This document shows positions 1-54,165 of a stretch of DNA of 64,000 nt, piece by piece. Position 1 is the stretch's first letter. The number at the start of each line of letters is the position of its first letter. The notes under the pieces were generated by a model that was not told where the DNA came from, did no database searches, and saw only the letters and a list, made by a program, of their open reading frames with translations. This DNA comes from an uncultured bacterium (GTDB lineage Bacteria > Verrucomicrobiota > Kiritimatiellia > RFP12 > UBA1067), in contig CACZHC010000042.1 in assembly GCA_902780865.1 (NCBI GenBank), positions 279 to 64,278 on the forward strand, in the 5' to 3' direction. The translations under genes were made by a program, and so were the position numbers.

Positions 1-829
1 GCGGTGCGAAAGCTTGACGCGGACGATTCGTCCGTCGTAGTCTCTGAGTAGAAGATTGCGTTTTTGCCATACGGCGATGATCTCGCCGCTTATCTTCCGC
101 TTGCCGAGCGAGCGGACGTTCTCGGGCGTCTGGTAGATCTTGCGTTCGAGGAAGGGAATGCTCTGCGGCGGGGGCGGCGGGGAGAGAACCTTGATGTCTT
201 CGATCTGCGACACGATCAAGGGCCTTGCGTAGCGGCGTACGGACGGAAGCGCCCAGTTGAACGTGCCGACCACAGACACCTGGGACTCCAGAAGCTGGTT
301 GACGGCGTCCGGGGCTACTGAAGGGAGGAGAACCGGCATTGTCGTCGGACCGTCTTTGAGGGTAAGGCAGATGAAGTTGGGGTCGTCTTCGCTTGTGCGC
401 CAGTCGATGACGGTTCCAGTAGTCCGTATGAGGAACTGGCTTGACTACGGCGCCGCTCCCGAGAAGCTGAATTTCATGTGCGACTGCGTAGGGCTCGTTG
501 CCGTAGTCGTGTTTCTGGAGGCCGAAGATGCCGGAGATAAAAACGCGGTCTCCCTGCTGCAGCGCGACTGGTGATGGCGCTCTGTTGAACACAGATACGA
601 GCAGTTCGCCGTCGTCGACGACGAAACACGCGATGGTGGACGGATCGCTTTCGGCCTTTTGGATTGTATGGACGGTGCCGGTCAACGCGAAGTAGTTGTG
701 GATTGCCGGCGCAGTGTTGTCCAGGACGTTCATCATCGACCTGATGTCCGTGTTGGTTACGGCACCTGAGAGATCGGCAAACGCGATTGACGTGGCTGCA
801 CATAAAAGCATCCGTGACCATTTCTTCAT
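1..829 (-). pseudogene. secreted hypothetical protein, 3' end outside window, reading frame changes near 410-445
   Basis: Complement ATG at 829 gives MKKWSRMLLCAATSIAFA (signal-peptide-like). This frame stays protein-like to ~420 (..AVAHEIQLLGSGAVVKPVPHTDYW), then turns Arg-rich. The frame one base further is open from 444 to base 1 and reads ..GTVIDWRTSEDDPNFICLTLKDG..FNWALPSVRRYARPLIVSQIEDIKVL..GEIIAVWQKRNLLLRDYDGRIVRVKLSHR. Not in the ORF track because no stop lies in the window; hand translated. Confidence 0.5.
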
Positions 830-836
830 GGCGAGA

Positions 837-845
837 ATTATATCA
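837..845 (-). promoter_or_regulatory. extended -10 box TGATATAAT, 7 nt before the ATG at 829 (leaderless)
   Basis: Complement of attatatca; the 7-nt gap leaves no room for a Shine-Dalgarno. Confidence 0.5.
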
Positions 846-876
846 TATATTGATGAATCGAGCCCGCAAATCCCCA

Positions 877-892
877 CCCTCCAGTTGGAGGG
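877..892. promoter_or_regulatory. 16-bp palindrome CCCTCCAGTTGGAGGG, candidate operator/activator site
   Basis: Identical 16-mer at 6711-6726 and 7688-7703. Each is centred 32-34 nt upstream of the TATAAT of a TGTATAAT box. Confidence 0.55.
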
Positions 893-915
893 GTTTCCAA
901 AAGCGAGTGGTCGGG

Positions 916-923
916 TGTATAAT
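916..923 (+). promoter_or_regulatory. -10 box TGTATAAT for the giant esterase gene
   Basis: Same box and same spacing to the palindrome as at 6749 and 7727. SD aaaggaaag lies before the ATG at 966. Confidence 0.45.
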
Positions 924-965
924 CGTGGTGACGCTGGACATATAACAATCTGCAAAAAGGAAAGC

Positions 966-3900
966 ATGAAAATCAAGACAATGTTGGCGATGGCGCTCGG
1001 CGCTCTGGCAGCGGGCTTTGCGGCGGCGGGAGATCTCGCGGTCTCCGCATACTGGCAGGACCACATGGTCCTCCAGCGAGGGAAGAACATCACCGTCTGG
1101 GGCAAGGACGCCCCGGGCCGCACCGTGACCGTGTCGTTCACCAACCAGACGGCTACCGCCACGACGGGCTCCGACGGATTCTGGGAGACGACGTTCGCGC
1201 AGCCGTTCGCGCTCTCGGCCACGCCGCAGGCGCTGACGATCACCGACAGCGCGAGCGAGTCCATAACGCTTTCGGACGTCCTCGTCGGCGACGTGTACCT
1301 CGCTGCCGGGCAGAGCAACATGGACCGCCGCCTGAAGGACAAGGACAAGGCCTTTGACGAGCCTCAGTCGACGACGACGGCATCCGCTTCCTCCGCATTG
1401 CGCGCAGCGCAGAGGACGCGACGGAGGAGAAGCTCTTCGACTTGCCCCCCATCAAGCCCGTCAACGACACGATCAAGTACTACGGCGAAGGATTCGACTG
1501 GGCTCCGGCGACGATGGGCGGGGCGGCAAGCAACAAGTACCACGTCAGCAGCGTCGCGCTCAACTTCGCCCACTACATCCGCAGGGCGAACGAGGAGAAG
1601 GGGCAGAACATCCCGATCGGCATCATCCATGCCTCGTCCGGCGGAACGTTCATCCGCGAGTGGATCGCCCCGTCGGTCCTCAACGATAACGGCATCTATT
1701 CCCCAGGCTCTGCGTCTTCCTCGGACGGCTGGTTCTGGAACAACATGATGGCCCCGATCCTCCGCGCGAAGATATGCGCCGTTCTTTGGTACCAGGGCTG
1801 CTCTGATTCCAGGCCGGATTGTGTGCCAGTATACAAGACGATGATGGATATCCTCGTGAGGGATCGCCGTGAGCGCTGGGGGGAGAACGGCGATTTGCCG
1901 TTCTATGCCGTGCAGATCGGCGCGCCCAACTACAATTCGGCCTCCGGCACGATTGGCCTTGATCAGTATCCGGCGCCGACCGAGGTCATAGCCGGAGAGA
2001 ACTACGCCACCATCCGCGAATGCCAGCGGCTCTGGAACATGACCGACACGGGCAGGCACGGCCTCGTCACCATCGTCGACTGCGTCGACTGCCTGAGCAA
2101 CGGGGCCCTTCATCCGGCCGACAAGAACTTCGTCGGGCGTCGCCTCTCTCTCCTCGCGCGCAGGGACATCTACGGCGAGACGGACCTTCCGGCGGAAGGG
2201 CCGACCTACACCCGTGCCGTGAGGGAGTTCGACGGGTCCGTCCGGATCTTCTTCAAGCCGGGCACGGCTAAGGGACTTACGGCGGGCCGCATGAAGCCGG
2301 CTACGGACATCACGGTGAGCCGTTGGATCAAGAAGGACACCGACCCGATCCGCGGCTTTGCGGTCTGCGGCGGCGACAGCGTCTGGAAGGACGCGGTCGC
2401 GACAGTCGACGGCGAAACAATCGTCCTGCGCGCGGACGGCGTCGCAACCCCGACGAAGTTCCACTACGGCTACTGGTGCGTTACCCGCGAGACCCTGCAG
2501 GAGGACGGCCAGCGCCTGAACCTCTACAACGACGCCGGGCTCCCGATGTCGCCCGTCGCGCCGCAGATGGTCGAGGACGCGGCAGCGTCGACGAAAGTAG
2601 TGGAACCCGTGATTGTGCCTGGCTCTTGCTTCTTCTCGCCGTCGACCAACGTGACGATCACCTGCGCGACTTCCGGCGCGACGATCCGCTACACGCTCGA
2701 CGGCAGCGAGCCGACCGCGTCGAGCACGGCCTACTCGGCGCCGATCCCGCTCACCGCGACGACGACGGTCAAGGCCCGCGCCTTCGCCGCGAACAAGGAT
2801 CCGAGCGACGTCGTCTTCGCGACATACACGCTTGGCGAGCCTCCGGCGGTGACGGCCGATCCTCAGTGGACCGTATCCTCCTACGACCCGTCCTTGTGGT
2901 CGAAGCTCTCTGGCAACATTCTCGCGGGGAAGACCGGCACGATTTCGGGCAGCGTCGCCTTCACGAGCAGCGGATACAACAACAATCCGGACAACCTGAC
3001 CGACGGTTCAGTGCCGTCCACGCCGGACAACTCCGCCTACGTCGGCTTCCAGGAGAACTCGTCCATCTACTGGACGTTCGACGAACCGCAGACGATCGAG
3101 GCGATCCGCTTCACGACGCAGCGGACCGCCGGTACTGACAGTGATGTGTCGAGGGCCTACGGCGGGCTCCACATCGAGGACGTCTACGTCCGGACGAGCG
3201 GCTCGTCGGAATGGGAGCCGCTGGGCACGCCGATCTACCAGAAGGGCGGGACGGTCGGCGGTTTCATGCTGGCTACCCTCGCGGATGACGGCGTCGGGAT
3301 TCTGGCCCAGAACGTCGTCGCCCTGAAGGTCGTATTCCTCCGGAGCGAATACTTCTGGTTCAACGTCGCGGAAGTTGAGGCGACCGGCTACGATTCGTCG
3401 GGCGGAACCGTCGGACCGGTCGATCCGATAACGCCTGTCGCGGGTTCGCTTGTCGTCGATACGACGATTTCCGACCACTGCGTCCTGCAGCGTGGAACGA
3501 ACAACTGCGTGAAGGGCACTGCGACCGTCGGCTCTACAGTCACGGTGACCTTCGGCGGAGTCTCGGCGTCGGCCGTCGCGGGGTCCGACGGAAGCTTCTC
3601 CGTCTCCATCAATCCCGGCGCCGCGAACGCCACGGGACGCGACCTCGTCGTCTCCGACACCGTCAACACGGTCACGATCACCGACGTCGTCGTGGGTGAC
3701 GTGTGGTACATTTCGGGACAGTCCAACGTCCGCTACACCGTCGATGCACTGGCGAAGTCCAAGGCTCTCGCGGACTGCGACTATCCGAGCCTCCGCATGA
3801 TGATGCTTCCGTCCGCGAACCCGGGACTCATCTCGGCGTCCGATGCGGAACTTCCCTGCGCATGGTCCGTCTGCTCGGCGACGACATGCACTAACATGTC

Positions 3901-6619
3901 CGCCACCGGATTCTTCTTCGGACGTGAATTGGTCAAGGCCGAGAACGTCCCCGTCGGCGTCGTGGTGGCGGCGATCAACGGATCCTACATCGCGAACTGG
4001 CTGCCGAACGCCAGCTGCGACAATTACATGGCCTCGCGCGCGAACCACATCGCGTTGAAGGGCGCGGTCTGGTATCAGGGCGAGTCCGATGCCTTGAACT
4101 ACAGCGACCGTAGCTATCCGAACAGGCTCAAGTCCCTCGTCCGGCACTTGCGCACGCGCCCCGGCAACGAAGGCCTGCCGGTCGTGGTGGTGCAGCTCCC
4201 GCGCTACCGCGACACATACATCAACTGCGGCAACCAGGCCGCGATCAACTGCTGGGGAATCTTCCGCGTCGACCAGGACCTCGCCGCCGCCGACATGGAC
4301 GGCGTCGTCTGCGTGCCGACGATCGAGTACGGCGCGGAATACAACATCCATCCGTCCGACAAGGACCTAATGGGCGCGCGCATAGCGCTCGCGGCCCGCA
4401 ACCTCGCGTACGGCGAGAACGTCGCCTACCGCTGCCCCTATCCGACTAGCGTGGAGAAGAACGAGGCCGGCACGACGGTCACGGTGACGTTCCCAGAAAC
4501 GACGACGCTCGTGGCCACCAACGATACGGCTTCCGTCCTCTTCGGAGAGGACCGGGAGATGTTCTCCGTCAGCGGAGCGAACGTAATGCCGGCAATCTCC
4601 GCCGACGGACATTCCCTCGTCTTCACCGGATCCTTCGCGGACGCCACGAGCGTCGAGTACGGCATCTGCGGATATCCGAAGATCCTCTTCGTGGACGCCA
4701 ACGGATTCCCCATGCCGCCGTTCAGCCTGGAACTCACCGGTGGTGGCAGTGGCGGCGAGCCAGTCGAAACGGCCGCGACACCGACCTTCAGCCCCGCCGC
4801 CTGCAGCTTCTATCCCACGACCAACGTGGCGCTCTCCTGCGCGACGTCCGGCGCGACGATCCGCTACACGCTCGACGGCAGCGATCCAACCGCAGAGAGC
4901 GCTATCTACACTGCTCCGATCGCTCTTTCCACCACGACGACGGTGAAGGCTCGCGCCTTTGCGGGCGGGATGAACGCGAGCGCCGTCGCATCCGCGACAT
5001 ATACACTGACAGAGCCCGTCGATCCGCCGGATCCGCCTCCGTCTGGCGACAAGATGTTCTACGTCGACGGGACGGGGTACGACAGCTGGGCGGCTGCGAT
5101 GAATGCGGCATCTGCCGGCGGCACTGTTTATCTCGGCGCGGATGCGGAAATTTCCGGCACCCAGCTGAAGTCGCTCACGATCGATCTCTGCGGGCATACG
5201 CTGACGGCGAGCAGCTCGGCTAGTCCTTATATCGGCGGCGTCGCCATTACCGTGATCGACAGCTCCGGCAATGGTATGTTCACGGCGCCCAATGGAATGA
5301 ATCTCCAGGGAACCATCGATCTCTCGGCTTTAACCCACGATCAGTTCTCCATTGCCGGCAACCGGTTTTGGACTGGCTCAGGCACTGTCGCGAAATTCCC
5401 CGCAGGCTGGACTCTTGACGAGTGCAAGGCCACGTTCAGGAATTCGGTCGCAGGTGCGAAGATCGTCGTGCAGGGCGTCACATACACTTGGGATGGATCG
5501 AACTGGGTGTCTGATGACCCTGGCCATGCCATTACGATCACGGCGCCTCAGAACGGCACGCTCGAGACGTCTGTGACGAACAATGTTGCGGCGGGAACGA
5601 CTGTGACTGTAACCGCGACCCCGGCGTCGGGATATCAGCTCGTATCGGTGACTACGAATGGCGCGGCGCTTGCGGGCAATTCGTTCACGATGCCCTCCGC
5701 GAATGTGACGGTTGCGGCGACGTTCGAAGAAGTGGAACTTCCGCCGGATCCGCCTCCGTCGGGCGACCATGCGTTCTACATAGGCGAGACGGGCTACGAC
5801 AGCTGGATGGACGTCTATGCCGCGGCGAAGGCCGGCGATACGATTGTCGTTGGTGTAAACGCCGAGATCAGACAGTCGTCCGGGACGTTCAGCAAGTCCG
5901 TCACGATCGATCTCCACGGACATGAGCTGAACTTCATACAGGGATGGCTGACAGGCTGCAGCGTCGACGTTGTCGACACGGGCGCACCGGCCGGACAGTT
6001 TGTGGTTTCGGCCTACTCGATGAATGTCGGCGGCGGCACTCTCGACCTTTCCTCCCTGGCCAGCGGCCAGGTGACCGGAAGGTTCCAGATGTCCGCTACA
6101 ACGCTTCTGTCGTTTCCCAGCGACCGCCCGCTTGCGGACTGCACGTCCGCCATCAATATTAAGGCGGAAGGCTCGCGTATCGTGGTTCAAGGCGTTACAT
6201 ACACCTGGGATGGAACGAACTGGGTGCCCGAGGGCAAAAGCTATCCGGAGTGGATCGATTCGACGAGCCAGACGCTTACGGACAAGTACGACGCGTGGGC
6301 GGCGAAGTTCAACGTCGCCGATCCGACGGCGGCCCAGAAGGACGCGTATCTCCTGAACTGCGCGAACACGGCGGAGGCCGTCGCCGCGGCGAAGGCTTCG
6401 TTCACGGTTACCTCCATTGCGGTCAATGCGGACGGCACGGTGGATGTCGGGCTTCCGGCCGCCCCGGAAGGCGGATTCAACGGAACGGTCACGATCCTCG
6501 GCTGCGAGACGGTTGATGGCGAATATCACGCCATGACGACGGGCAATCTCCTTGATGCCTTGTACCGCATCCCCGCGACATCGAACGTCCATTTCTTCAA
6601 GGCGTCGCTGGATATGTGA
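966..6619 (+). pseudogene. giant secreted multidomain carbohydrate esterase (2x SASA/sialate-O-acetylesterase-like), interrupted by a frameshift at 1358-1385
   Basis: SD plus ATG at 966, signal peptide MKIKTMLAMALGALAAGFAAAG. GQSNM at 1308 and GQSNV at 3716 (SGNH/SASA-type esterase motif). Two near-duplicate SGATIRYTLDGS(E/D)PT..TTTVKARAFA domains (~2620-2830, ~4785-5010). Discoidin-like domain ending AEVEATG (~2860-3390). PASGYQLVSV..VTVAATF B-repeat (~5525-5735). Two copies of an unassigned ~160-aa module (5024-5510, 5741-6226). The start is in the frame of ORF 696..1748 and the remainder in the frame of ORF 1442..6619. Confidence 0.75.
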
Positions 6620-6665
6620 GGCAACCACGAAACACACGAAGCACACGAATAGCTAAGATAACGAT

Positions 6666-6702
6666 TTGGACGGTTGCGCGGCAGAGCCGCGCAACCGTCC
6701 AA
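6666..6702 (+). terminator. intrinsic terminator hairpin (16-bp perfect stem, 5-nt loop)
   Basis: ttggacggttgcgcgg cagag ccgcgcaaccgtccaa, 47 nt after the stop at 6619. Paralogous hairpin at 7643-7679. Confidence 0.7.
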
Positions 6703-6710
6703 CTATTTCA

Positions 6711-6726
6711 CCCTCCAGTTGGAGGG
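6711..6726. promoter_or_regulatory. palindrome CCCTCCAGTTGGAGGG (copy 2)
   Basis: Identical to 877-892 and 7688-7703. Confidence 0.55.
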
Positions 6727-6748
6727 GTTTTCAACGGCGGGGGGCTGA

Positions 6749-6756
6749 TGTATAAT
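6749..6756 (+). promoter_or_regulatory. -10 box TGTATAAT
   Basis: Conserved position relative to the palindrome. Followed by SD aaggag and the ATG at 6820. Confidence 0.45.
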
Positions 6757-6819
6757 TTTGGCAAATAATTTACAGCCCAAAAAGCGATTATTTCAAGCAC
6801 TAAAAAAGGAGTGATTAAA

Positions 6820-7605
6820 ATGAGTAAAAAAATCGTACGTTCCTTGTTGGTCGCAATCGCGAGCGTCTTGGCCCTAGGCCTTCGCGCAGACCCGGAACCG
6901 ATGTTCTATGTCGGCGATACGGGTTACGACACCTGGATGGGCGCATACACCAACGTTGATGCCGGCGGCACGATCTTGGTCGGTGAGAATGCCGCTCTTG
7001 AGCAGACGAATGGGGAAAATGTGGGGGTTATCGGCAAGTCCGTCACGATAGATCTTAACGGACGCAATCTGCGCTACGTCAAAGGATGGCTGACTGGCTG
7101 CACCGTCAAAATTGTCGATACTGGCATGCCGAGCGTGACTGGTCGGTTCGAAATAGCGTCTGGCAGAATGAACATGTCCGGCGGCACGTTGGACCTTTCG
7201 GCTCTTTCCGGCAGTCAAGTCAATGGGAACTTCCAGATGTCCTCCACGTCGCTCTTGAAGTTTCCCAGCGACATGGACCTCGACCAGTGCACAACTCGCA
7301 TCGTGATCGATTCGGTAGACCAGCAGACGCCCAAGGGGAAGGGTGCGCGCATCGTGGTGAAAGGCGTCACGTACGTCTTTGACGGAACGAGCTGGGGCGT
7401 AGCGTTCAAGATCACGAGCATCTCCGTGTTTGACGAGGTGGTCGAGTTCGGTGTGATGGTCCCGGCAGACGGCGAGGTTACGATCCTCGGCAGTGAGTTT
7501 GTCAGCGGCACGTATAACGCGCTGACGACAACTAAGATCAGCGATGGTCTGTATCAAGTTCCGGTGTCGAACGCGCGGTTCTTCAAGGCGGCGATGGAGT
7601 TGTGA
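6820..7605 (+). CDS. secreted protein: one copy of the unassigned R module plus shared C-terminal domain
   Basis: AGGAG 8 nt before the ATG at 6820 (ORF track starts at GTG 6811). Signal peptide MSKKIVRSLLVAIASVLALG. Residues align along their length with residues encoded at 5741-6616 of the giant gene (FY.G.TGYD.WM, KSVTIDL.G, GWLTGC, GGGTLDLS, IVV.GVTY..DGT.W, FFKA). Confidence 0.8.
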   Translation: MSKKIVRSLLVAIASVLALGLRADPEPMFYVGDTGYDTWMGAYTNVDAGGTILVGENAALEQTNGENVGVIGKSVTIDLNGRNLRYVKGWLTGCTVKIVDTGMPSVTGRFEIASGRMNMSGGTLDLSALSGSQVNGNFQMSSTSLLKFPSDMDLDQCTTRIVIDSVDQQTPKGKGARIVVKGVTYVFDGTSWGVAFKITSISVFDEVVEFGVMVPADGEVTILGSEFVSGTYNALTTTKISDGLYQVPVSNARFFKAAMEL

Positions 7606-7642
7606 GGTAACCACGAAATACACGAAAAGCTAAGATAACAAG

Positions 7643-7679
7643 TTGGACGGTTGCGTAGCAGGGTTGCGCAACCGTCCAA
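7643..7679 (+). terminator. intrinsic terminator hairpin (13-bp stem)
   Basis: ttggacggttgcg..cgcaaccgtccaa; paralogue of 6666-6702. Confidence 0.65.
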
Positions 7680-7687
7680 ATCGTATA

Positions 7688-7703
7688 CCCTCCAGTTGGA
7701 GGG
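7688..7703. promoter_or_regulatory. palindrome CCCTCCAGTTGGAGGG (copy 3)
   Basis: Identical 16-mer. Confidence 0.55.
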
Positions 7704-7726
7704 GTTTTCAGTGGTGGGGGTGTGGA

Positions 7727-7734
7727 TGTATAAT
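7727..7734 (+). promoter_or_regulatory. -10 box TGTATAAT
   Basis: Same spacing to the palindrome. SD aaaggag before the ATG at 7794. Confidence 0.45.
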
Positions 7735-7793
7735 CTAAGCGAACAAACAACACGAACTCTACACTGTCATGCCTAGATAAAGGAGTGATAAAA

Positions 7794-9233
7794 ATGAGCA
7801 AGACGATTGTGACTTCCCTGCTGCCCGCCCTCGCGGTCGCCATTACTCTGAACCTCCATGCCGCACCGGCGTGGACAATAGAAGACGTCGCGCCTGGAGA
7901 CTGGACGTCGCTTGCGGGCAATCTGCTCGCCGGACTCACCGGCACGAAAACAGGGACGATATCAACTGGATACGGGACGACTGACATGGGGGTCCTGACG
8001 GACGGCGTGGCCCCTACGGTGAACGGCAACGAATCCAGGGTTGCCTTCCAAAACACTGGCGCGGTCGAATGGTCGTTCACGACGCCGAAGACGCTGGAGC
8101 AGGTTCGCGTGTCGGGTTGCTACCTGGGCGGTTCGACATACACACGCATCTCGATCAGCGCCGTCTACGTGAAACTCTCCGGCTCGGATACATGGACGGA
8201 GCTTGATGGCTCCAGCTTCCTGGACAACAGCGGCAGAAGCCAGAACGTCGTGATTTGCGCGTCTCTTGCCGATCCTGCCACCGGGTATCTCGCCCAGGGC
8301 GTCGCCGGTTTGAAGGTCGCCTTCGGGGCTAACGTCCCGCTCGCCAGTTACATCGTCGAAATAGAGGCCGTCGGTTCCACGGAGGCGACAGGGCCCGTCC
8401 TCGGGTTTTTCGCCGTCGCCCCCGCGAAGACCAAGGCAACCGTCTCCGGCACAATCGCAGATGTCGGTACGGACGCGACCACCTGCGATGTCTATCTCGC
8501 GCTCGACGGCGGTGCGGCGACGAAAATCGCCGAAGACGTGACGGGTGTGTTCGAGTACTTGGTCCAGGGCCTGACTGCGGGAACGACTTATGCCTACGAA
8601 CTCTCGGTCTCCAACAATGCCCCGACATCCAGGGGAACGGTGCAAAGCGGCGACTTCACGACGCTGGCCTCTGATGCGTCGACCGCGTTCTGGACGACGA
8701 GCGAGGGTGTTCCGGGCGACTTTTCGCCGCTTGCGGACAATCTGATTGCGAACAAGACAGGCACTGTGTCTGGGGGGAGCGTCTCGGGATACGGCGGCGG
8801 CGTAGAACTGCTGACGAACGGCGAGGTTTCGGGCGTGACGAAACAGACATGTGGATTAGGTGAAAATCGGGCGATGGAATGGTCTTTTGACGGGCCGAAG
8901 ACGCTGGAGAGAATCAGATTTACGACGTGTGACATTCCCGATGGTCGCCAGTACGACGACATCAAAATCTCCAAGGTCGAGGTGAAGACAGCTGGATCCG
9001 ACTCCTGGGCGGACCTTGGTGTCGTGCCGCTGGACTATGCCGGGAGCAATGCGCAGGGCGGCGCACTCTTCGCGACGCTTGCGGACGCGGAAACCGGATT
9101 CCTTGGTCAAAACGTGACGGCTATCCGCATCACATTCGGCAAACCCAATAATGTTGCGCAGTACTATGCAGAGATCGAAGCCGTTGGGCACGCGGCAGAT
9201 CAGAAAAATGGCGTGATAATTTATGTCTTATAA
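7794..9233 (+). CDS. secreted protein with two discoidin/galactose-binding-like domains
   Basis: Signal peptide MSKTIVTSLLPALAVAITLNLHA. Two internal repeats (..LAGNL.AG.TGT.S...LTDG...WSF..PKTLE.(V/I)R......EIEAVG) resemble the domain at ~2860-3390 of the giant gene. Confidence 0.75.
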   Translation: MSKTIVTSLLPALAVAITLNLHAAPAWTIEDVAPGDWTSLAGNLLAGLTGTKTGTISTGYGTTDMGVLTDGVAPTVNGNESRVAFQNTGAVEWSFTTPKTLEQVRVSGCYLGGSTYTRISISAVYVKLSGSDTWTELDGSSFLDNSGRSQNVVICASLADPATGYLAQGVAGLKVAFGANVPLASYIVEIEAVGSTEATGPVLGFFAVAPAKTKATVSGTIADVGTDATTCDVYLALDGGAATKIAEDVTGVFEYLVQGLTAGTTYAYELSVSNNAPTSRGTVQSGDFTTLASDASTAFWTTSEGVPGDFSPLADNLIANKTGTVSGGSVSGYGGGVELLTNGEVSGVTKQTCGLGENRAMEWSFDGPKTLERIRFTTCDIPDGRQYDDIKISKVEVKTAGSDSWADLGVVPLDYAGSNAQGGALFATLADAETGFLGQNVTAIRITFGKPNNVAQYYAEIEAVGHAADQKNGVIIYVL

Positions 9234-9248
9234 GGACTCCGCTGGCAA

Positions 9249-10325
9249 ATGAAAAACGCCTTGTTTATGGCTGCCGCCGTTGCATGTCAATTTGCAAGCG
9301 CCGCGAGTTCTTACGGGAGCTACATCGGCTCCGGGCCCGGGAAGGTCCCCGGCGCGGTAACGATCGGCTACGCCGACGGAAAGCTCACGACGCAGTGCTT
9401 CGGCTTCGCGGATACCGAGGCCAAGATACCGATGACCGCAGACACTGTTGGATGGCTCGCGTCGAACACGAAGGCCATTGCGTGCGCCCTCGCTCTTTCG
9501 TATGTCGAAGAGGGCAAGCTCGCTTTGGACGAGCCGATCTCCCGCTATCTTCCCGAATGGAAGGGCGAGAAGGTTCCGACGTTGAGGCAGTGCATGTCGC
9601 ACACGTCGGGGCTGAAGTTTTTTCCCGAGATGCCTATCGACAGGCGCCCTGTGCAGCTCCTGTCACGCCTTGCCGCGCAGAGCGAACGCGTGGCGGCGCC
9701 GGGCGAGAAGTACCAGTACTCGAACTGGGGAATCGACGTTGCGATGGCCTGTGTCGAGGCCGTGACGGGACAGCCGTGGGAGGTGCTCTTGAAGGAGAGG
9801 ATCCTCGATCCGCTGGAAATGCGCGACGCTACTTTCTTCCCGACCGAGGAGCAGTGTGCGCGGATGGCGAAGGGGTACGTGCTGACGGACGACAAGCCGG
9901 CGAAAGAAGTCGCTGTCAATCAGTTCCAGTACCCATATTCTCTTCACAGCCGCTATCCTGAGGCTGGCGGGGGGCTATTCGGAAGCCCGATGGACATGAT
10001 CAAGTTCTTCGCCATGGTCGCGAACGGAGGCGTCGGACTGAACGGAAAGCGCGTCCTGAAAGAGGAGACTGTGGCGCTCTGGTTCAAGAAACAGACGCCG
10101 GAATGCGTCGCCGAGAGATATTCCTTCGGAGCGTGGGTGTCCGAGGACGGACAGATGATGTCGCATGGCGGCGCCTGGTCGACATGGGGCTGCGCCTATC
10201 GCGAGAGCGGCGTTGCGCGCGTATTCTTCGTGCAATACGCCGGCGGCGAGTCGAAGGGATACGAGAAATTCAGGTCTTTGGTGGACAAGGATGCGGAGAC
10301 GAGCTATTCTCCGACAAAACTGTAA
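9249..10325 (+). CDS. serine hydrolase, beta-lactamase/esterase family
   Basis: Signal peptide. S-x-x-K motif SNTK and Y-x-N motif YSNWG, typical of class C beta-lactamase-fold hydrolases. Confidence 0.85.
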   Translation: MKNALFMAAAVACQFASAASSYGSYIGSGPGKVPGAVTIGYADGKLTTQCFGFADTEAKIPMTADTVGWLASNTKAIACALALSYVEEGKLALDEPISRYLPEWKGEKVPTLRQCMSHTSGLKFFPEMPIDRRPVQLLSRLAAQSERVAAPGEKYQYSNWGIDVAMACVEAVTGQPWEVLLKERILDPLEMRDATFFPTEEQCARMAKGYVLTDDKPAKEVAVNQFQYPYSLHSRYPEAGGGLFGSPMDMIKFFAMVANGGVGLNGKRVLKEETVALWFKKQTPECVAERYSFGAWVSEDGQMMSHGGAWSTWGCAYRESGVARVFFVQYAGGESKGYEKFRSLVDKDAETSYSPTKL

Positions 10326-13172
10326 ATGGCGGGTGACACTATGAAACGCAGAGCTCTTGTTCTTTCACTTCTGGTTGTCGTGTCGGCCGTTCCGACGCTG
10401 GCCGGCGTGACCTGGTGGTCTGTGCCGGCGATGAGCGGCGTCCAACGTCTGCCGGATGCAATTCCCGCCGATGGCGAGCAGGGAGGGACAGTCAGAATTG
10501 TCGCCGCCCACGATGAATACGAGCCTGGCTCGTTTGTTGTTCGCTCCGACACCGACCTCGGCAAGGTGCAGCCTGTCGTGGAAAAGCTTGTGAACGAGAA
10601 TGGAAACGTCTTCCCCGCCAACGCGCTTGACCTCGTCGTCGTCAAGGTCTGGTATCAGAACAAGAACGGATGGTTCAGCTATTTCGCCGACACGGGCATG
10701 AAGCTCTGCCCCGAACTCCTTCTCCACGACGAGGACCTCATTCGCGTCGACACGGCGAAAGAGGCGAACTACGCGCGGATCACGAGCGCGGACGGCAAGA
10801 TTGCGGAGTGGTGGCTAAACCCGCTTTTCAAGGAGAAGAAGCCGTTCCCCTCGATGCGCCCCGGCTTTGCGGACGCGAAGTCGATACGCCCCGTCGCGCT
10901 CGAGAAGAACGTCAGCAAGCAGTTCATCCTCACCGCGCATGTCACGCCTGACATCCCCGCCGGCCTGTACCGCGGCAAGATATCGTTCTCGACATTCTCT
11001 GTCCCCGTCGCAATCAAGGTCCTTGATTTCGGCTTGCCGAAGCCGATGGCATACATCCATCCCGAGATGGACTTCCGCATCTGCTCCTACGATTATATCG
11101 GAAAGAGTCATATCCTGGAGTTGAACGGCGGCGACGAGAATTTGATGTGGAAGCAGATGGAGGCGATTCTCGCGAATTTCGTCGCGCACGGACAGGACAT
11201 GAAGTGGGTCAGGTGCAAGACTGGTTCGGAGGAGGCCGAGCGTACGATTGAGCTGATGAAAAAAGTCGGCATGCGGACGGACGTCATTGTCGGCCCTGTA
11301 GACTACAAGTGGCAGGAACGCGATGCCAAGGCCGCACGCGAACGCGCAGACAGCATCGTCGCCTACTATGACAAGAAGTACGGACACCACAACGTTTACT
11401 GCGGATACGGCGACGAACCAGGGGTGAGGTTCTTCCCGGAGAACCGTCCAGTCTTCGACGCATATCAGGCCGCGGGGCTCAAGTTCATCATCGCCTCGCA
11501 CGGGCACATTTTCGATCAGGCGGGATACCGCTGGAACTGGCACAACGCCGCGCAGAATCCGGCGGACGCGTCCAGTCCGTCCGTTTGGAACCAGATGGGG
11601 ACGAACACCTACTGCGCATGGTATGCCAATCAGCATGTCGGCGCGGAGGATCCCGAGCTCAACCGCCGTCAGAACGGACTCGCTGCCTACCTGAGCGGCT
11701 ATTCCGCGCTTTGCAACTACGCCCACCACCTGGGACCGTACAACGATGTTTCCGAAACCTACAAGCCGATGGTCTTCGTGTATGGAACTGCGGATGGTGT
11801 CATCGACACGCTTCAGTGGAAGGGTTTCCGCGAGGGCGTCGACGACATCCGCTATGCGACGCTGATGACGGCGCTTGCGCGTGAGGCGGAGATGTCAGCC
11901 GACATCGAGGTGCGCTATCTCGCGGGCAAGGCAAAGCTTCTTCTTGCGCGGTTTGACAAGAAGACTGGCGACCTCAACGCGGCACGCGGCGAAATGATCG
12001 GCTTTATTGAGCATCTCCGCGCGGCGCTTGGCAAGGGAAAGAATAAAGTTGGGAGTTATGAGTTGGGAGTGGGTGAGTCAAACAATCTTAATTCAAAATC
12101 CCAGGTATACAAAACGCCTTTGCCGTCTGACATTTCGTGGGTTCAGGAGGGCCCGAGCGAAGGAGAGGCCGCGCCGAAGGGGTTGCCCGACAAGACATAT
12201 ACTGTCCGTATGAGCCCCGTGCGCATTCTTGGTCTCGGCAGCTGGGATGCGGCCGCGAAAGTTGTGAAACCTGGGACGGAGAAACTTGATCGCGGCTACG
12301 GCGGCGATGCCTCGTGTCTTTGGACGGATGTTGCGACCCAGCGCGGGGCGGTTGGCGCCGATGCTGAGAAACGCTACGCACGCGCACCCGAGTGGCAGGC
12401 GATGGCGGACGAGTGGGGGCTTCATTTCCGGCTTGAGGTCTTTGACGAGAAGGCCGCGGAAATCGCGCAGGGTTTTGGCTCGGTGGGGTCGCTCGAGGCA
12501 TATCTCGCGCCTGGAGCAAACACGCCATACTATGCGTTCATTCACTCTTTCGAGACTGGCGGCATGACCGTCTACAATCCCGTCTACAGCCAGCCGGATC
12601 ACCGCGAGATCGACGAAAAGGACCGTGCGAACTGCCGCGAGGAAGTCATGTGCACCGACAAGTCGGTCGTGCTTTACTTCGCGGTATCCTGGAAGTCCTA
12701 CGCGACGCGCATCCCTACGGCGAAGTCGGTTTGGGATTTCGAGCCGATGTTCTGGGGCCGCAAGGGGAACTGCTCGTGGAATGGACTCAAGACGATTCAC
12801 GGTCGTTCGTCGTGGGGTCATCTGGGCTTTGCGCTGACGGACGCCGAACGTCGCCTGATTTTGCGTTCCGTTATCGTCGCGGCGCGCAAGGCGTATGAGG
12901 CCGAAAAACGCCCGACGGGAGCATGCGGACGCTGGCAGAACGCCGAGGTCGGCGATCCCGCGTTCTACGAAAGCGAGCTGAAGCCGGTCGTGGAGAAGCT
13001 GGATGCGGCGGCAGCGCGGGTTTCGGCGGATATGGACGACGAGACTGTCGACGAACTCGCGAAGACCGCGCTTCCTGCATGGCACAACTTCAAGTTCGAA
13101 GTGCAGCGCCTGCGTGCCGATTACCTGCTGCGTAGGCAGGTGCTTGGCGAGACGAGTGCAAGAATGTTATAA
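10326..13172 (+). CDS. large secreted protein, N part DUF4091/GH123-like (tentative), C part CBM9-like (tentative)
   Basis: 948-aa ORF. ATG at 10326 abuts the previous TAA; alternative ATG at 10341 precedes signal peptide MKRRALVLSLLVVVSAVPTLAG. Family assignment from memory only. Confidence 0.6.
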   Translation: MAGDTMKRRALVLSLLVVVSAVPTLAGVTWWSVPAMSGVQRLPDAIPADGEQGGTVRIVAAHDEYEPGSFVVRSDTDLGKVQPVVEKLVNENGNVFPANALDLVVVKVWYQNKNGWFSYFADTGMKLCPELLLHDEDLIRVDTAKEANYARITSADGKIAEWWLNPLFKEKKPFPSMRPGFADAKSIRPVALEKNVSKQFILTAHVTPDIPAGLYRGKISFSTFSVPVAIKVLDFGLPKPMAYIHPEMDFRICSYDYIGKSHILELNGGDENLMWKQMEAILANFVAHGQDMKWVRCKTGSEEAERTIELMKKVGMRTDVIVGPVDYKWQERDAKAARERADSIVAYYDKKYGHHNVYCGYGDEPGVRFFPENRPVFDAYQAAGLKFIIASHGHIFDQAGYRWNWHNAAQNPADASSPSVWNQMGTNTYCAWYANQHVGAEDPELNRRQNGLAAYLSGYSALCNYAHHLGPYNDVSETYKPMVFVYGTADGVIDTLQWKGFREGVDDIRYATLMTALAREAEMSADIEVRYLAGKAKLLLARFDKKTGDLNAARGEMIGFIEHLRAALGKGKNKVGSYELGVGESNNLNSKSQVYKTPLPSDISWVQEGPSEGEAAPKGLPDKTYTVRMSPVRILGLGSWDAAAKVVKPGTEKLDRGYGGDASCLWTDVATQRGAVGADAEKRYARAPEWQAMADEWGLHFRLEVFDEKAAEIAQGFGSVGSLEAYLAPGANTPYYAFIHSFETGGMTVYNPVYSQPDHREIDEKDRANCREEVMCTDKSVVLYFAVSWKSYATRIPTAKSVWDFEPMFWGRKGNCSWNGLKTIHGRSSWGHLGFALTDAERRLILRSVIVAARKAYEAEKRPTGACGRWQNAEVGDPAFYESELKPVVEKLDAAAARVSADMDDETVDELAKTALPAWHNFKFEVQRLRADYLLRRQVLGETSARML

Positions 13173-16388: not shown

Positions 16389-16396
16389 TGTATAAT
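16389..16396 (+). promoter_or_regulatory. -10 box TGTATAAT, 9 nt before the ATG at 16406
   Basis: No SD in the gap. Confidence 0.4.
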
Positions 16397-42936: not shown

Positions 42937-42960
42937 GGTTGTCAACCACGGAATACACTG

Positions 42961-42986
42961 AACACACGGAAGCGATTCCGTGTGTT
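42961..42986. terminator. intrinsic terminator (11-bp stem, GCGA loop, T tract) between convergent genes
   Basis: aacacacggaa gcga ttccgtgtgtt ttgtttt. Confidence 0.75.
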
Positions 42987-42991
42987 TTGTT

Positions 42992-45026: not shown

Positions 45027-45035
45027 ATTATACCA
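45027..45035 (-). promoter_or_regulatory. extended -10 box TGGTATAAT (minus strand)
   Basis: Complement of attatacca; faces the minus-strand GT operon. Confidence 0.5.
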
Positions 45036-54156: not shown

Positions 54157-54165
54157 ATTATACCA
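54157..54165 (-). promoter_or_regulatory. extended -10 box TGGTATAAT, 8 nt before the ATG at 54148 (leaderless)
   Basis: Complement of attatacca. Confidence 0.5.

What the first reader, a model, noticed from the sequence alone, without database searches (positions are those of the whole stretch)
6620..6819. Duplicated intergenic cassette: ACACGAA-rich tail, strong terminator, 16-bp palindrome, TGTATAAT box, SD and signal-peptide start
Regions 6620-6830 and 7606-7805 are recognisably the same cassette. It consists of tgtgagg(c/t)aaccacgaaa(c/t)acacgaa..agctaagataac, a hairpin ttggacggttgcg..cgcaaccgtccaa, ccctccagttggaggggttttca, a (c/g)tg(a/g)atgtataat segment, aaaggagtgat(t/a)aaaATGag, and a protein start MSK(K/T)IV. 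The palindrome is centred about 44 nt upstream of the inferred start site, where a dimeric activator or repressor overlapping the -35 region would bind. No regulator gene is visible nearby. Three adjacent secreted-protein genes therefore look like one regulon generated by tandem duplication or gene conversion.
Basis: seen in the sequence. Interest (0 to 1): 0.65.

Follow-up and report, generated by a model that had tools for sequence, protein, structure and literature searches.

The report
Response-regulator operator in duplicated promoter cassette
The repeated intergenic cassette is real: it combines a 3' hairpin with a promoter that carries a conserved 16-bp "7-2-7" palindrome, most likely the binding site of a two-component response regulator encoded next door, so it is an ordinary kind of switch in an uncultured rumen bacterium.

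Summary
Observation confirmed and extended. CCCTCCAGTTGGAGGG occurs three times in 64 kb (877, 6711, 7688; expected 0.01). Each copy lies 24-25 nt upstream of a TATAAT box, in front of three consecutive signal-peptide genes.

In related rumen Kiritimatiellia contigs the arms stay invariant while the flanks, the spacer and the central 2 nt vary. The only arm change, GGCGGG, is uncompensated. The neighbouring large hairpin, in contrast, evolves by compensatory changes. The element reads as a 7-2-7 inverted repeat, CCCTCCA-NN-TGGAGGG, centred at about -44.5/-45.5 and abutting a weak -35. E. coli NarL uses the same geometry at yeaR and ogt.

The divergent gene at 829→1 is the sensor part of a HisKA_3 histidine kinase. 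In same-strain contigs a NarL/LuxR-type response regulator follows it, just outside the window.

Best explanation (confidence 0.6): the adjacent two-component system activates three or more promoters of a secreted glycan-esterase cluster through this operator. These promoters lack the extended -10 TG of the organism's mostly leaderless housekeeping promoters. A terminator role for the palindrome is at most secondary.

Cassettes A and B descend from an old duplication (39% protein identity) and their functional blocks were kept by selection. New member of a known kind. No binding or transcript-start data exist.

The parts
1..829 (-). N-terminal (signal peptide plus extracytoplasmic sensor) part of a HisKA_3/HATPase_c histidine kinase. 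It is cut by the window edge, and its frame is broken by a 43-nt gap at 432/433 relative to same-strain contigs.
   Evidence: tblastn against the L007 kinase. Pfam on the L007 and L037 orthologues. The window is 100%/99.9% identical to L037 on either side of the gap.
837..845 (-). Extended -10 (TGATATAAT) of the kinase/regulator operon. The ATG at 829 lies about 7 nt downstream, so the mRNA is leaderless. The hexamer is 34 nt from the operator, which places the operator centre at about -54.5.
   Evidence: Sequence. The same 34-nt spacing is seen in L001, L007, L014 and L034.
877..892 (.). Operator O1, CCCTCCA-GT-TGGAGGG (7-2-7), shared by the divergent promoters.
894..923 (+). Core promoter P1: -35-like TTTCCA (894-899), 18-nt spacer, TATAAT (918-923). 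Inferred start about 930.
   Evidence: 10 of 12 matches. The start site is inferred, not mapped.
966..6619 (+). Gene 1: secreted multidomain protein with two SASA esterase domains plus CHB_HEX_C, Fn3_assoc and InlB-B-like domains. The window copy has a frame break after 1369 (19 nt missing). It is intact (1890 aa) in L037.
6623..6649 (+). CA-rich 9-nt direct repeats (CACGAAAYA, 2.7 copies) in the 3'UTR of gene 1.
6666..6702 (+). Hairpin-1 of cassette A: 16-17 bp stem with no U-tract. Candidate 3'-end or terminator structure.
   Evidence: compensatory changes in orthologues.
6711..6726 (.). Operator O2 (7-2-7 palindrome).
6728..6756 (+). Core promoter P2: TTTTCA, 17-nt spacer, TATAAT (6751-6756). 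Inferred start about 6763, operator centre -44.5.
6806..6822 (+). Shine-Dalgarno AAGGAG and the ATG of gene 2.
6820..7605 (+). Gene 2: 261-aa secreted protein with no Pfam or NCBIfam match. It is a paralogue of the last module of gene 1 (39% identity).
7609..7626 (+). CA-rich 9-nt repeats (2 copies) in the 3'UTR of gene 2. One RNA contig from another strain has 3 copies.
7643..7679 (+). Hairpin-1 of cassette B.
7688..7703 (.). Operator O3 (7-2-7 palindrome).
7705..7734 (+). Core promoter P3: TTTTCA, 18-nt spacer, TATAAT (7729-7734). Inferred start about 7741, operator centre -45.5.
   Evidence: RNA contigs of gene 3 begin at about 7755-7767.
7780..7796 (+). Shine-Dalgarno AAGGAG and the ATG of gene 3.
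7794..9233 (+). Gene 3: 479-aa secreted two-repeat protein with no family match. It is the first gene of a tightly packed run of genes: beta-lactamase-fold hydrolase, a 943-948 aa protein, a GFO/IDH/MocA oxidoreductase and a TIM-barrel protein.

Best explanation
The cassette has two functional halves. The first is a 3'-end module for the upstream gene: CA-rich repeats followed by a large stem-loop. The second is a regulated promoter for the next gene.

The 16-bp palindrome is a DNA operator of the 7-2-7 type, CCCTCCA-NN-TGGAGGG. I propose that a dimer of the NarL/LuxR-family response regulator binds it. That regulator is encoded, together with its HisKA_3 sensor kinase, divergently from the first operator.

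Proposed mechanism: the kinase's large extracytoplasmic domain senses an unknown signal, probably glycan-derived. The phosphorylated regulator then binds at -44.5/-45.5, abutting a weak -35, and recruits sigma-70-type RNA polymerase to three promoters in this locus, and to more promoters in relatives, including a second locus. The genes switched on encode a secreted sialate-O-acetylesterase-like multidomain protein and secreted proteins of unknown function.

Shown:
- the motif, its statistics, and its fixed spacing to the -10;
- its sequence-level conservation across lineages;
- the adjacency and family of the two-component system.

Inferred:
- the start sites;
- that this particular regulator binds the site;
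- that the effect is activation rather than repression.
For: 1. The palindrome is placed with a promoter, not with a gene end. There are three exact copies, each 24-25 nt upstream of TATAAT and facing a gene with an SD and a signal peptide. O1 lies in a divergent region with no co-directional upstream gene.

2. An unbiased sample found by protein homology. In about 24 modules from about 12 lineages (45-84% protein identity) the arms CCCTCC/GGAGGG are unchanged. The upstream flanks carry about 0.1-0.9 bits per column. The -35 region, the spacer and even the -10 vary (TATAAT, TATAAA, CATAAT, TAGCAT, TAGAGT, TAGAAT). The operator-to-hexamer distance stays at 24-25 nt (23 nt once).

3. The centre variants ATTT, ACTT and AAAT change only the 2-nt spacer of the 7-2-7 reading. 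A7 and T10 are each kept in 97% of modules, although in an RNA hairpin they would be loop bases.

4. The only arm variant, GGCGGG, is uncompensated and persists in 5 loci (L004, L006, L018, L020, L022).

5. Internal control: hairpin-1 in the same intergenic regions shows 4 pairs with changes on both sides and 95.5% of cells paired.

6. The regulator is adjacent.
- Window 829→1 is the kinase N-terminus.
- Same-strain contigs L037/L038 show the response regulator (Response_reg + GerE, 206 aa) and the kinase (HisKA_3 + HATPase_c, 704 aa) divergent from gene 1.
- The same kinase/regulator pair sits next to a palindrome promoter in L001, L007, L010, L014, L015 and L027. In L027 the adjacent target is a gene-3-type gene instead.
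- The regulator's closest solved relatives are VraR, ChrA, NarL, DesR and DevR, with E-values from 6e-37 to 4e-26. NCBIfam gives NarL-family hits.
- The HTH recognition helix is nearly invariant among the orthologues and differs in a 41% paralogue.

7. Precedent for the geometry. NarL dimers bind 16-bp 7-2-7 sites abutting the -35, centred at -43.5 (yeaR) and -44.5 (ogt), and a single dimer can activate (PMC7419079 and PMC10853779).

8. These promoters lack the TGn extended -10 that the organism's mostly leaderless housekeeping promoters carry (TTTGGTATAAT), and their -35 hexamers are weak and unconserved. This fits dependence on an activator.

9. In MAG202 the exact 20-mer motif is also at a second locus on another contig; the 8 kb held around it (L005) have no kinase or regulator match. 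This is as expected for a trans-acting factor.
Against: - There is no binding, footprint or start-site data. The RNA contigs are sparse and may contain DNA.
- The half-site CCCTCCA is unrelated to the NarL consensus TACYYMT, so specificity cannot be transferred from NarL.
- In L002, L016 and L036 no response regulator lies next to the palindrome promoter. Adjacency is therefore frequent but not universal.
- -35 hexamers with 3-4 of 6 matches plus a perfect -10 could give constitutive activity, in which case the site could equally serve a repressor.
- Most modules carry GTTTTC after the stem, so the RNA form could also terminate upstream transcripts.
- Arm conservation is inflated for loci L001-L016, which were found with the motif itself.
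Confidence: 0.6

Rival explanations
1. The palindrome is mainly an RNA element: a short GC-rich hairpin plus U-tract, that is, an intrinsic terminator for the upstream gene. Its closeness to the promoter would be incidental, or the U-tract would merely double as the -35.
For: - The stem has 6 pairs (5 G-C), -11.9 kcal/mol, followed by GUUUUC.
- The terminator scan flags 7688-7703.
- In cassettes A and B, and in L006, L011 and L018, it follows a stop codon. In L018/L020/L022 no other hairpin precedes it.
- An RNA(?) contig runs from the 3' end of gene 2 to 7718, just past the U-tract.
Against: - O1 and its orthologues lie in divergent regions with nothing to terminate.
- The U-tract is absent in L017/L024/L031 (TATCCA), L025/L026 (GTTCCC) and L032 (TTCTCG).
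- There are no compensatory arm changes, and the one uncompensated change persists, whereas hairpin-1 does covary.
- The fixed 24-25 nt distance to the -10 is not explained.
- A canonical terminator in this genome has a stem of at least 10 pairs (the scan counts 12) and a long T-run (42960-42987).
Confidence: 0.12
2. The palindrome is an operator, but for repression. A dimeric repressor, either the same regulator or another factor, occludes the -35 until an inducer is present.
For: - It has the same sequence-level conservation and the same fixed position abutting the -35.
- The -10 is a perfect TATAAT and the -35 matches 4 of 6 at the window's three promoters, which could support basal activity.
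Against: - The promoters lack the extended -10 TG that the housekeeping promoters have.
- The -35 is unconserved between lineages.
- A centre at -44.5/-45.5 leaves the -35 hexamer free. It is the position from which NarL activates.
Confidence: 0.15
3. The palindrome is an operator for a transcription factor encoded elsewhere, and the adjacent two-component system controls something else.
For: - In L002, L016 and L036 no response regulator lies beside the palindrome promoter.
- L013 and L004 carry a second, paralogous NarL-type regulator near the cluster.
Against: - The kinase/regulator pair sits beside a palindrome promoter in at least 7 lineages, even where the neighbouring target gene differs (L027).
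- The 7-2-7 geometry fits this regulator family.
- The spacing to the kinase promoter is a conserved 34 nt.
- No other DNA-binding protein is encoded in the 64 kb window.
Confidence: 0.08
4. The repeat has no function of its own. It is a relic of duplication or gene conversion, or a small dispersed repeat (REP/MITE-like).
For: - A and B are 84% identical.
- Gene 2 is a duplicate of the end of gene 1.
Against: - Similarity is block-wise: loops, linkers and the 5'UTR have diverged.
- O1 shares only the operator and promoter.
- The motif is kept in orthologous positions across many species, always in the same orientation and at the same distance from a -10, and never inside genes.
Confidence: 0.03

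Closest known systems
E. coli NarX/NarL: 7-2-7 operators at the yeaR (-43.5) and ogt (-44.5) promoters
   Same: - A 16-bp inverted repeat of two 7-bp half-sites separated by 2 bp.
- It abuts a weak -35.
- One dimer of a Response_reg + GerE regulator, partnered with a HisKA_3 kinase, can activate sigma-70 RNA polymerase from this position (PMC7419079, PMC10853779).
   Different: - The half-site is CCCTCCA rather than TACYYMT.
- The kinase has a much larger, unrelated extracytoplasmic domain with no Pfam match.
- The targets are secreted glycan-active proteins rather than respiration genes.
- Nothing has been tested biochemically.
- The host is an uncultured PVC-group bacterium.
VraSR / LiaSR-type systems of Firmicutes (closest solved homologues of the regulator)
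   Same: - Best sequence match of the regulator (VraR, E = 6e-37) and of the kinase core (LiaS model).
- From general knowledge, regulators of this type bind inverted repeats just upstream of their target promoters and autoregulate.
   Different: - Those systems sense cell-envelope stress through small sensor domains or accessory proteins.
- Here the sensor domain is about 450-500 aa and the regulon is a glycan-degradation-like locus.
Glycan-sensing regulators beside polysaccharide utilisation loci (for example the hybrid two-component systems of Bacteroides)
   Same: Works alike: a sensor with a large extracytoplasmic domain is encoded next to the secreted-enzyme cluster it presumably controls (established knowledge; not tested here).
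   Different: - This is a classical two-protein system with a GerE-type output, not a hybrid AraC-type protein.
- No SusC/SusD genes are present.
Rho-independent terminators
   Same: A GC-rich stem followed by T residues. Hairpin-1 and the palindrome both lie behind stop codons in cassettes A and B.
   Different: - Hairpin-1 has no U-tract.
- The palindrome's U-tract is short and not conserved.
- The palindrome also occurs where there is nothing to terminate.

Membership tests
NarL/LuxR-family response-regulator operator (7-2-7 type) | Two 7-bp half-sites in inverted orientation, separated by 2 bp | tested here: met
   CCCTCCA-GT-TGGAGGG: the reverse complement of the left heptamer equals the right heptamer. 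The lineage variants ATTT, ACTT and AAAT alter only the 2-nt spacer.
NarL/LuxR-family response-regulator operator (7-2-7 type) | Position compatible with direct activation: abutting the -35, centred at about -43.5 to -45.5 | tested here: inconclusive
   A 24-25 nt gap to the -10 hexamer gives -44.5/-45.5 if transcription starts 7 nt after the hexamer. Start sites are not mapped. RNA contigs beginning at 7755-7767 are only compatible with this.
NarL/LuxR-family response-regulator operator (7-2-7 type) | A cognate Response_reg + GerE regulator with a HisKA_3 kinase is present | tested here: met
   L037 1236-1856 (regulator) and 1859-3973 (kinase) lie directly beside O1 in contigs 99.9-100% identical to the window. 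Family assignment.
NarL/LuxR-family response-regulator operator (7-2-7 type) | The regulator binds the site, and binding depends on phosphorylation | not testable with these tools
   Needs EMSA or footprinting.
NarL regulon proper (E. coli-type NarL box) | Half-site consensus TACYYMT | tested here: not met
   The half-site is CCCTCCA. This is a different specificity, so it is not a NarL box.
Intrinsic (Rho-independent) terminator, for the palindrome | Stable GC-rich stem-loop | tested here: met
   -11.9 kcal/mol, 6-bp stem and 4-nt loop.
Intrinsic (Rho-independent) terminator, for the palindrome | U-tract directly after the stem, conserved among relatives | tested here: not met
   GTTTTC in most modules, but TATCCA, GTTCCC and TTCTCG in L017/L024/L031, L025/L026 and L032.
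Intrinsic (Rho-independent) terminator, for the palindrome | Lies at the 3' end of a co-directional transcription unit | tested here: not met
   O1 and its orthologues lie between divergent genes.
Structured RNA 3'-end element or terminator, for hairpin-1 | Base pairing maintained by compensatory substitutions | tested here: met
   4 of 16 pairs changed on both sides, 95.5% of cells paired, against at most 35% when the partners are slid. Only 7 sequences. In other lineages an unrelated hairpin, or none, occupies the place.
Structured RNA 3'-end element or terminator, for hairpin-1 | U-tract after the stem | tested here: not met
   It is followed by CTATTTCA or ATCGTATA, so at best it is an 'I-shaped' terminator or a stabiliser.
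Known RNA families (Rfam) | Match to a curated covariance model | tested here: not met
   No relevant hit in 1-12000 at E up to 1.
Dispersed repeat (REP/MITE-like) | Many copies in varied contexts and orientations, including inside or between unrelated genes | tested here: not met
   There are 3 copies in 64 kb, all promoter-associated. Across 185,579 species genomes, 15 of 16 hits are the same promoter type.

The most novel reading that the evidence does not exclude
The palindrome is a deliberately bifunctional, portable element. As DNA it is the response-regulator operator. As RNA it is the terminator hairpin of the preceding gene, and its U-tract doubles as the -35. This would make a compact 'stop and regulated restart' cassette that recruits new genes into the regulon by duplication: gene 2, the extra genes found in relatives, and a second locus in MAG202. 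A further possibility is that the single operator O1 co-ordinates both divergent promoters from the same helical face, being centred at -45.5 from the gene 1 start and -54.5 from the kinase start.
Probability: 0.2. Interest if true: 0.5.

Novelty: new member of a known kind. Interest (0 to 1): 0.38.

Why it matters
Kiritimatiellia are abundant but uncultured glycan degraders of the rumen and hindgut, and I found no literature on their promoters or regulons.

This locus gives a concrete, testable cis/trans pair: a 16-bp operator, a defined NarL-family regulator and kinase, and at least three target promoters. It also gives a contrast between two promoter classes. Housekeeping promoters are leaderless with an extended -10, while the regulated promoters have a leader and a Shine-Dalgarno sequence.

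This could be used to annotate regulons in MAGs and to look for the kinase's ligand. It also offers a small orthogonal inducible promoter system. Conceptually it is standard two-component regulation.

Tried and rejected
- **Rfam scan of 1-12000.** Nothing relevant.
- **Terminator reading of the palindrome.** Considered and demoted, for the reasons given under the rival explanations.
- **Alternative-sigma promoter.** Rejected. The -10 is the same GTATAAT as in the housekeeping promoters, and the conserved left arm lies too far upstream to be a -35.
- **Inverton or recombinase site.** Rejected. The arms are 7 bp and adjacent, and there is no second distant repeat.
- **RNA evidence for start and end sites.** Three read-laying runs on metatranscriptome contigs gave only sparse contigs, possibly from mixed strains or DNA. 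They are compatible with a start just before about 7755 but not decisive. Raw-read runs were not available.
- **A regulator inside the window.** Pfam on the main ORFs of each stretch found none. The regulator was found only by annotating related loci and fetching same-strain contigs.
- **Function of genes 2 and 3.** No match in Pfam, NCBIfam or PDB sequences. I ran no further search on them.
- **Literature on Kiritimatiellia promoters.** Nothing found.

Full report
**1. What is in the sequence**

The window is GC-rich DNA from a rumen bacterium. DNA runs holding it are bovine, sheep and goat gut metagenomes. The related genome records are Kiritimatiellia MAGs, or MAGs labelled Verrucomicrobia or Lentisphaerae.

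After the stop codons of gene 1 (6617-6619) and gene 2 (7603-7605) come, in order:
- 9-nt CA-rich direct repeats (6623-6649; 7609-7626);
- a long stem-loop with 13-bp identical arms that extends to 16-17 bp (6666-6702; 7643-7679);
- 8 nt of unconserved linker;
- CCCTCCAGTTGGAGGG (6711-6726; 7688-7703);
- GTTTTCA;
- a G-rich spacer;
- TGTATAAT (6749-6756; 7727-7734);
- a diverged 5'UTR of about 55 nt;
- AAGGAGTGAT(T/A)AAAATGAG and a signal peptide beginning MSK(K/T)IV.

The two copies align at 84%. The counts are far above chance.

A third copy of the palindrome plus -10 module sits at 877-923 in front of gene 1 (ATG 966). It has no hairpin and no CA-rich tail, and it lies in a divergent intergenic region. 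The promoter scan picks out exactly these three sites as the best sigma-70-like promoters in 500-9500: TTT(T/C)CA, 17-18 nt, TATAAT, 10 of 12 matches.

**2. Which elements are constrained, and how**

I collected relatives in two ways.
- An exact search for the 20-mer CCCTCCAGTTGGAGGGGTTT in 185,579 species genomes gave 16 loci. Fifteen of them have TATAAT 24-25 nt after the palindrome, followed by an SD, an ATG and a signal peptide. The sixteenth (L008) is an unrelated AT-rich terminator-like site.
- A protein-based search with gene 3 in metagenome contigs gave 20 loci at 39-84% identity. This sample is unbiased with respect to the palindrome.

Findings in the unbiased set:
- The arms CCCTCC and GGAGGG are unchanged in about 20 of 24 modules. 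The single variant, GGCGGG, is uncompensated and is found in L018/L020/L022, and also in L004 and L006.
- The upstream flanks carry almost no information.
- The sequence after the palindrome varies (GTTTTC, TATCCA, GTTCCC, TTTTCT, TTCTCG), and so does the -10 hexamer.
- The distance from the palindrome to the hexamer stays at 24-25 nt (23 nt once).
- The centre varies as AGTT, ATTT, ACTT, AAAT, GGTT and ATCC. Read as CCCTCCA-NN-TGGAGGG, three of the five variants touch only the 2-nt spacer.
- One orthologue has lost the promoter by deletion (L023). A distant one (L029) has a housekeeping-type promoter and no palindrome.

Hairpin-1 behaves in the opposite way. Among 7 distinct versions, 4 of 16 pairs carry changes on both sides with 95.5% pairing. 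In other lineages an unrelated GC-rich hairpin, or none, occupies the place.

So in the same intergenic regions one inverted repeat is constrained as a structure and the other as a sequence. This argues that the palindrome is read by a protein on DNA.

**3. The regulator**

Annotation of the related loci showed otherwise.
- The gene divergent from O1 is a 704-786 aa histidine kinase. It has a signal peptide, an extracytoplasmic domain of about 450-500 aa with no family match, then HisKA_3 and HATPase_c.
- A 206-aa Response_reg + GerE regulator follows it directly.
- Window 829→1 is the N-terminal part of this kinase.
- Contigs from two other samples (L037, L038) are 99.9-100% identical to the window. 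They extend 3.1 kb further and show the regulator and kinase intact and adjacent.
- The pair lies next to a palindrome promoter in L001, L007, L010, L014, L015 and L027. In L027 the neighbouring target is a gene-3-type gene.
- L002, L016 and L036 lack an adjacent regulator.
- The regulator is a NarL/FixJ-family protein. Its closest solved relatives are VraR (6e-37), ChrA, NarL (8e-28), DesR and DevR. The kinase core matches LiaS, NarQ, NarX and UhpB models.
- The recognition helix is nearly invariant among the orthologues, matching the invariant operator arms, and differs in a 41% paralogue.

**4. Mechanism**

If transcription starts 7 nt after each hexamer, the operators are centred at -45.5 (P1), -44.5 (P2) and -45.5 (P3). 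E. coli NarL binds 16-bp 7-2-7 sites that abut the -35, at -43.5 (yeaR) and -44.5 (ogt). One dimer suffices, acting through the alpha C-terminal domain on an intrinsically weak -35 (PMC7419079; PMC10853779).

The present promoters fit dependence on an activator. The organism's other promoters read TTTGGTATAAT, a TGn extended -10. About eight of the eleven in the window (nine TTTGGTATAAT-type plus the variants at 54163 and 16390) lie 6-9 nt before the start codon, which implies leaderless mRNAs. The cassette promoters instead read GGTG-TATAAT, have unconserved -35 hexamers, and carry 36-57 nt leaders with a strong SD.

The kinase operon itself has a leaderless TGATATAAT promoter (845-837). Its hexamer lies 34 nt from O1 in the window, L001, L007, L014 and L034, despite sequence divergence. 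This puts the operator centre at -54.5, about one helical turn from -44.5, which hints at autoregulation. That step is inference.

In MAG202 the exact 20-mer motif also occurs at a second locus on another contig; the 8 kb held around it (L005) have no kinase or regulator match. This is as expected for a trans-acting factor.

**5. The 3' half of the cassette**

Hairpin-1 has no U-tract. The palindrome hairpin (-11.9 kcal/mol) followed by GUUUUC could add some termination in cassettes A and B. The RNA contigs are too sparse to decide.
- Two contigs run from the 3' end of gene 2 through hairpin-1 and end at 7718 and 7734.
- Three contigs covering gene 3 begin at about 7755-7767.
- One begins at 7729.

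The CA-rich repeat has a third relative at 42944-42958. It lies directly after the stop codon of an unrelated gene and in front of a canonical terminator. Its role is unknown.

**6. Origin**

Gene 2 is 39% identical to the last module of gene 1, so the duplication is old. Both cassette types exist in other species (L004, L023, L033). Between A and B the loop, linker and 5'UTR have diverged while the stems, operator, -10 and SD are kept. This indicates purifying selection. Local gene conversion cannot be excluded for the identical hairpin arms.

**7. Verdict**

The operator idea is supported by comparative evidence. The regulator is in fact next door. The system is a new, untested member of the NarL-type two-component class, in a lineage where no regulation has been described. 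Interest is moderate.

Noticed in passing
window 21374, 28045, 38825, 45116, 51075, 54215, 58776 (+); 54163, 51012, 45033 (-); 16390 (+): The housekeeping promoters read (T)TTGGTATAAT (extended -10; variants GTGGTATAAT at 54163, TATGGTATAAT at 45033, CTGTATAAT at 16390). In about eight of these eleven the hexamer ends 6-9 nt before the start codon, so this bacterium appears to use leaderless mRNAs widely. The operator-controlled genes instead have 36-57 nt leaders with AAGGAG.
   Followed up: partly
window 432/433 and after 1369: Relative to two independent same-strain contigs (L037, L038), the window lacks 43 nt in the kinase gene and 19 nt in gene 1. Each gap breaks the reading frame. An RNA contig (X23) also carries the 19 nt. 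These are either assembly errors or a strain in which both the sensor and the main target are inactivated.
   Followed up: partly
window 6623-6649, 7609-7626, 42944-42958: The CA-rich, G-poor motif AACCACGRAAYACAC lies directly after stop codons (3 copies against 0.23 expected). It is made of 9-nt direct repeats whose copy number differs between strains (2-4). At 42944 it precedes a canonical terminator whose left arm repeats CACGGAA. RNA contigs of run X22 carry the motif in both orientations in other contexts. Its function is unknown.
   Followed up: partly
window 1-432 versus 432-2849: Window 1-432 (kinase residues about 224-367) is about 99% identical at the DNA level to L007, L009, L010 and L015, but from 432 onwards (the N-terminal sensor part and gene 1) identity drops to 83-90%. 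This mosaic suggests recombination, or a fast-evolving sensor domain.
   Followed up: no
L023 about 2900-3000; L005 2049-2207: Natural variants of the module. In L023 a deletion fuses the left half of the palindrome to the 5'UTR and removes the gene-3 promoter. In L005 two complete modules are 158 nt apart and enclose only a 16-codon remnant of a gene-3-type signal peptide.
   Followed up: no
window 9243-9271: A contig of run X34 has 1220 nt in place of these 29 nt, that is, an extra gene between gene 3 and the beta-lactamase-fold gene in another strain. Relatives (L003, L018, L021, L027) carry a further palindrome-driven signal-peptide gene at this place.
   Followed up: no
window 9210-9233 and the C-termini of gene-3 relatives (L006, L011, L025, L027): Gene-3-family proteins end in a K/R-G followed by a short hydrophobic tail (KNGVIIYVL*, KRGMIIIAR*, KRGLIILAR*, KKGGIVIVY*). 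This may be a C-terminal sorting signal.
   Followed up: no
window 2643-2784 and 4818-4959: An internal 142-nt repeat at 83% identity within gene 1, matching the duplicated SASA / CHB_HEX_C / Fn3_assoc domain block.
   Followed up: no
L013 4770-5366; L004 7807-7995: A second, paralogous NarL-type response regulator (41-51% identity) lies downstream of the cluster in two relatives. It is absent from the window.
   Followed up: no
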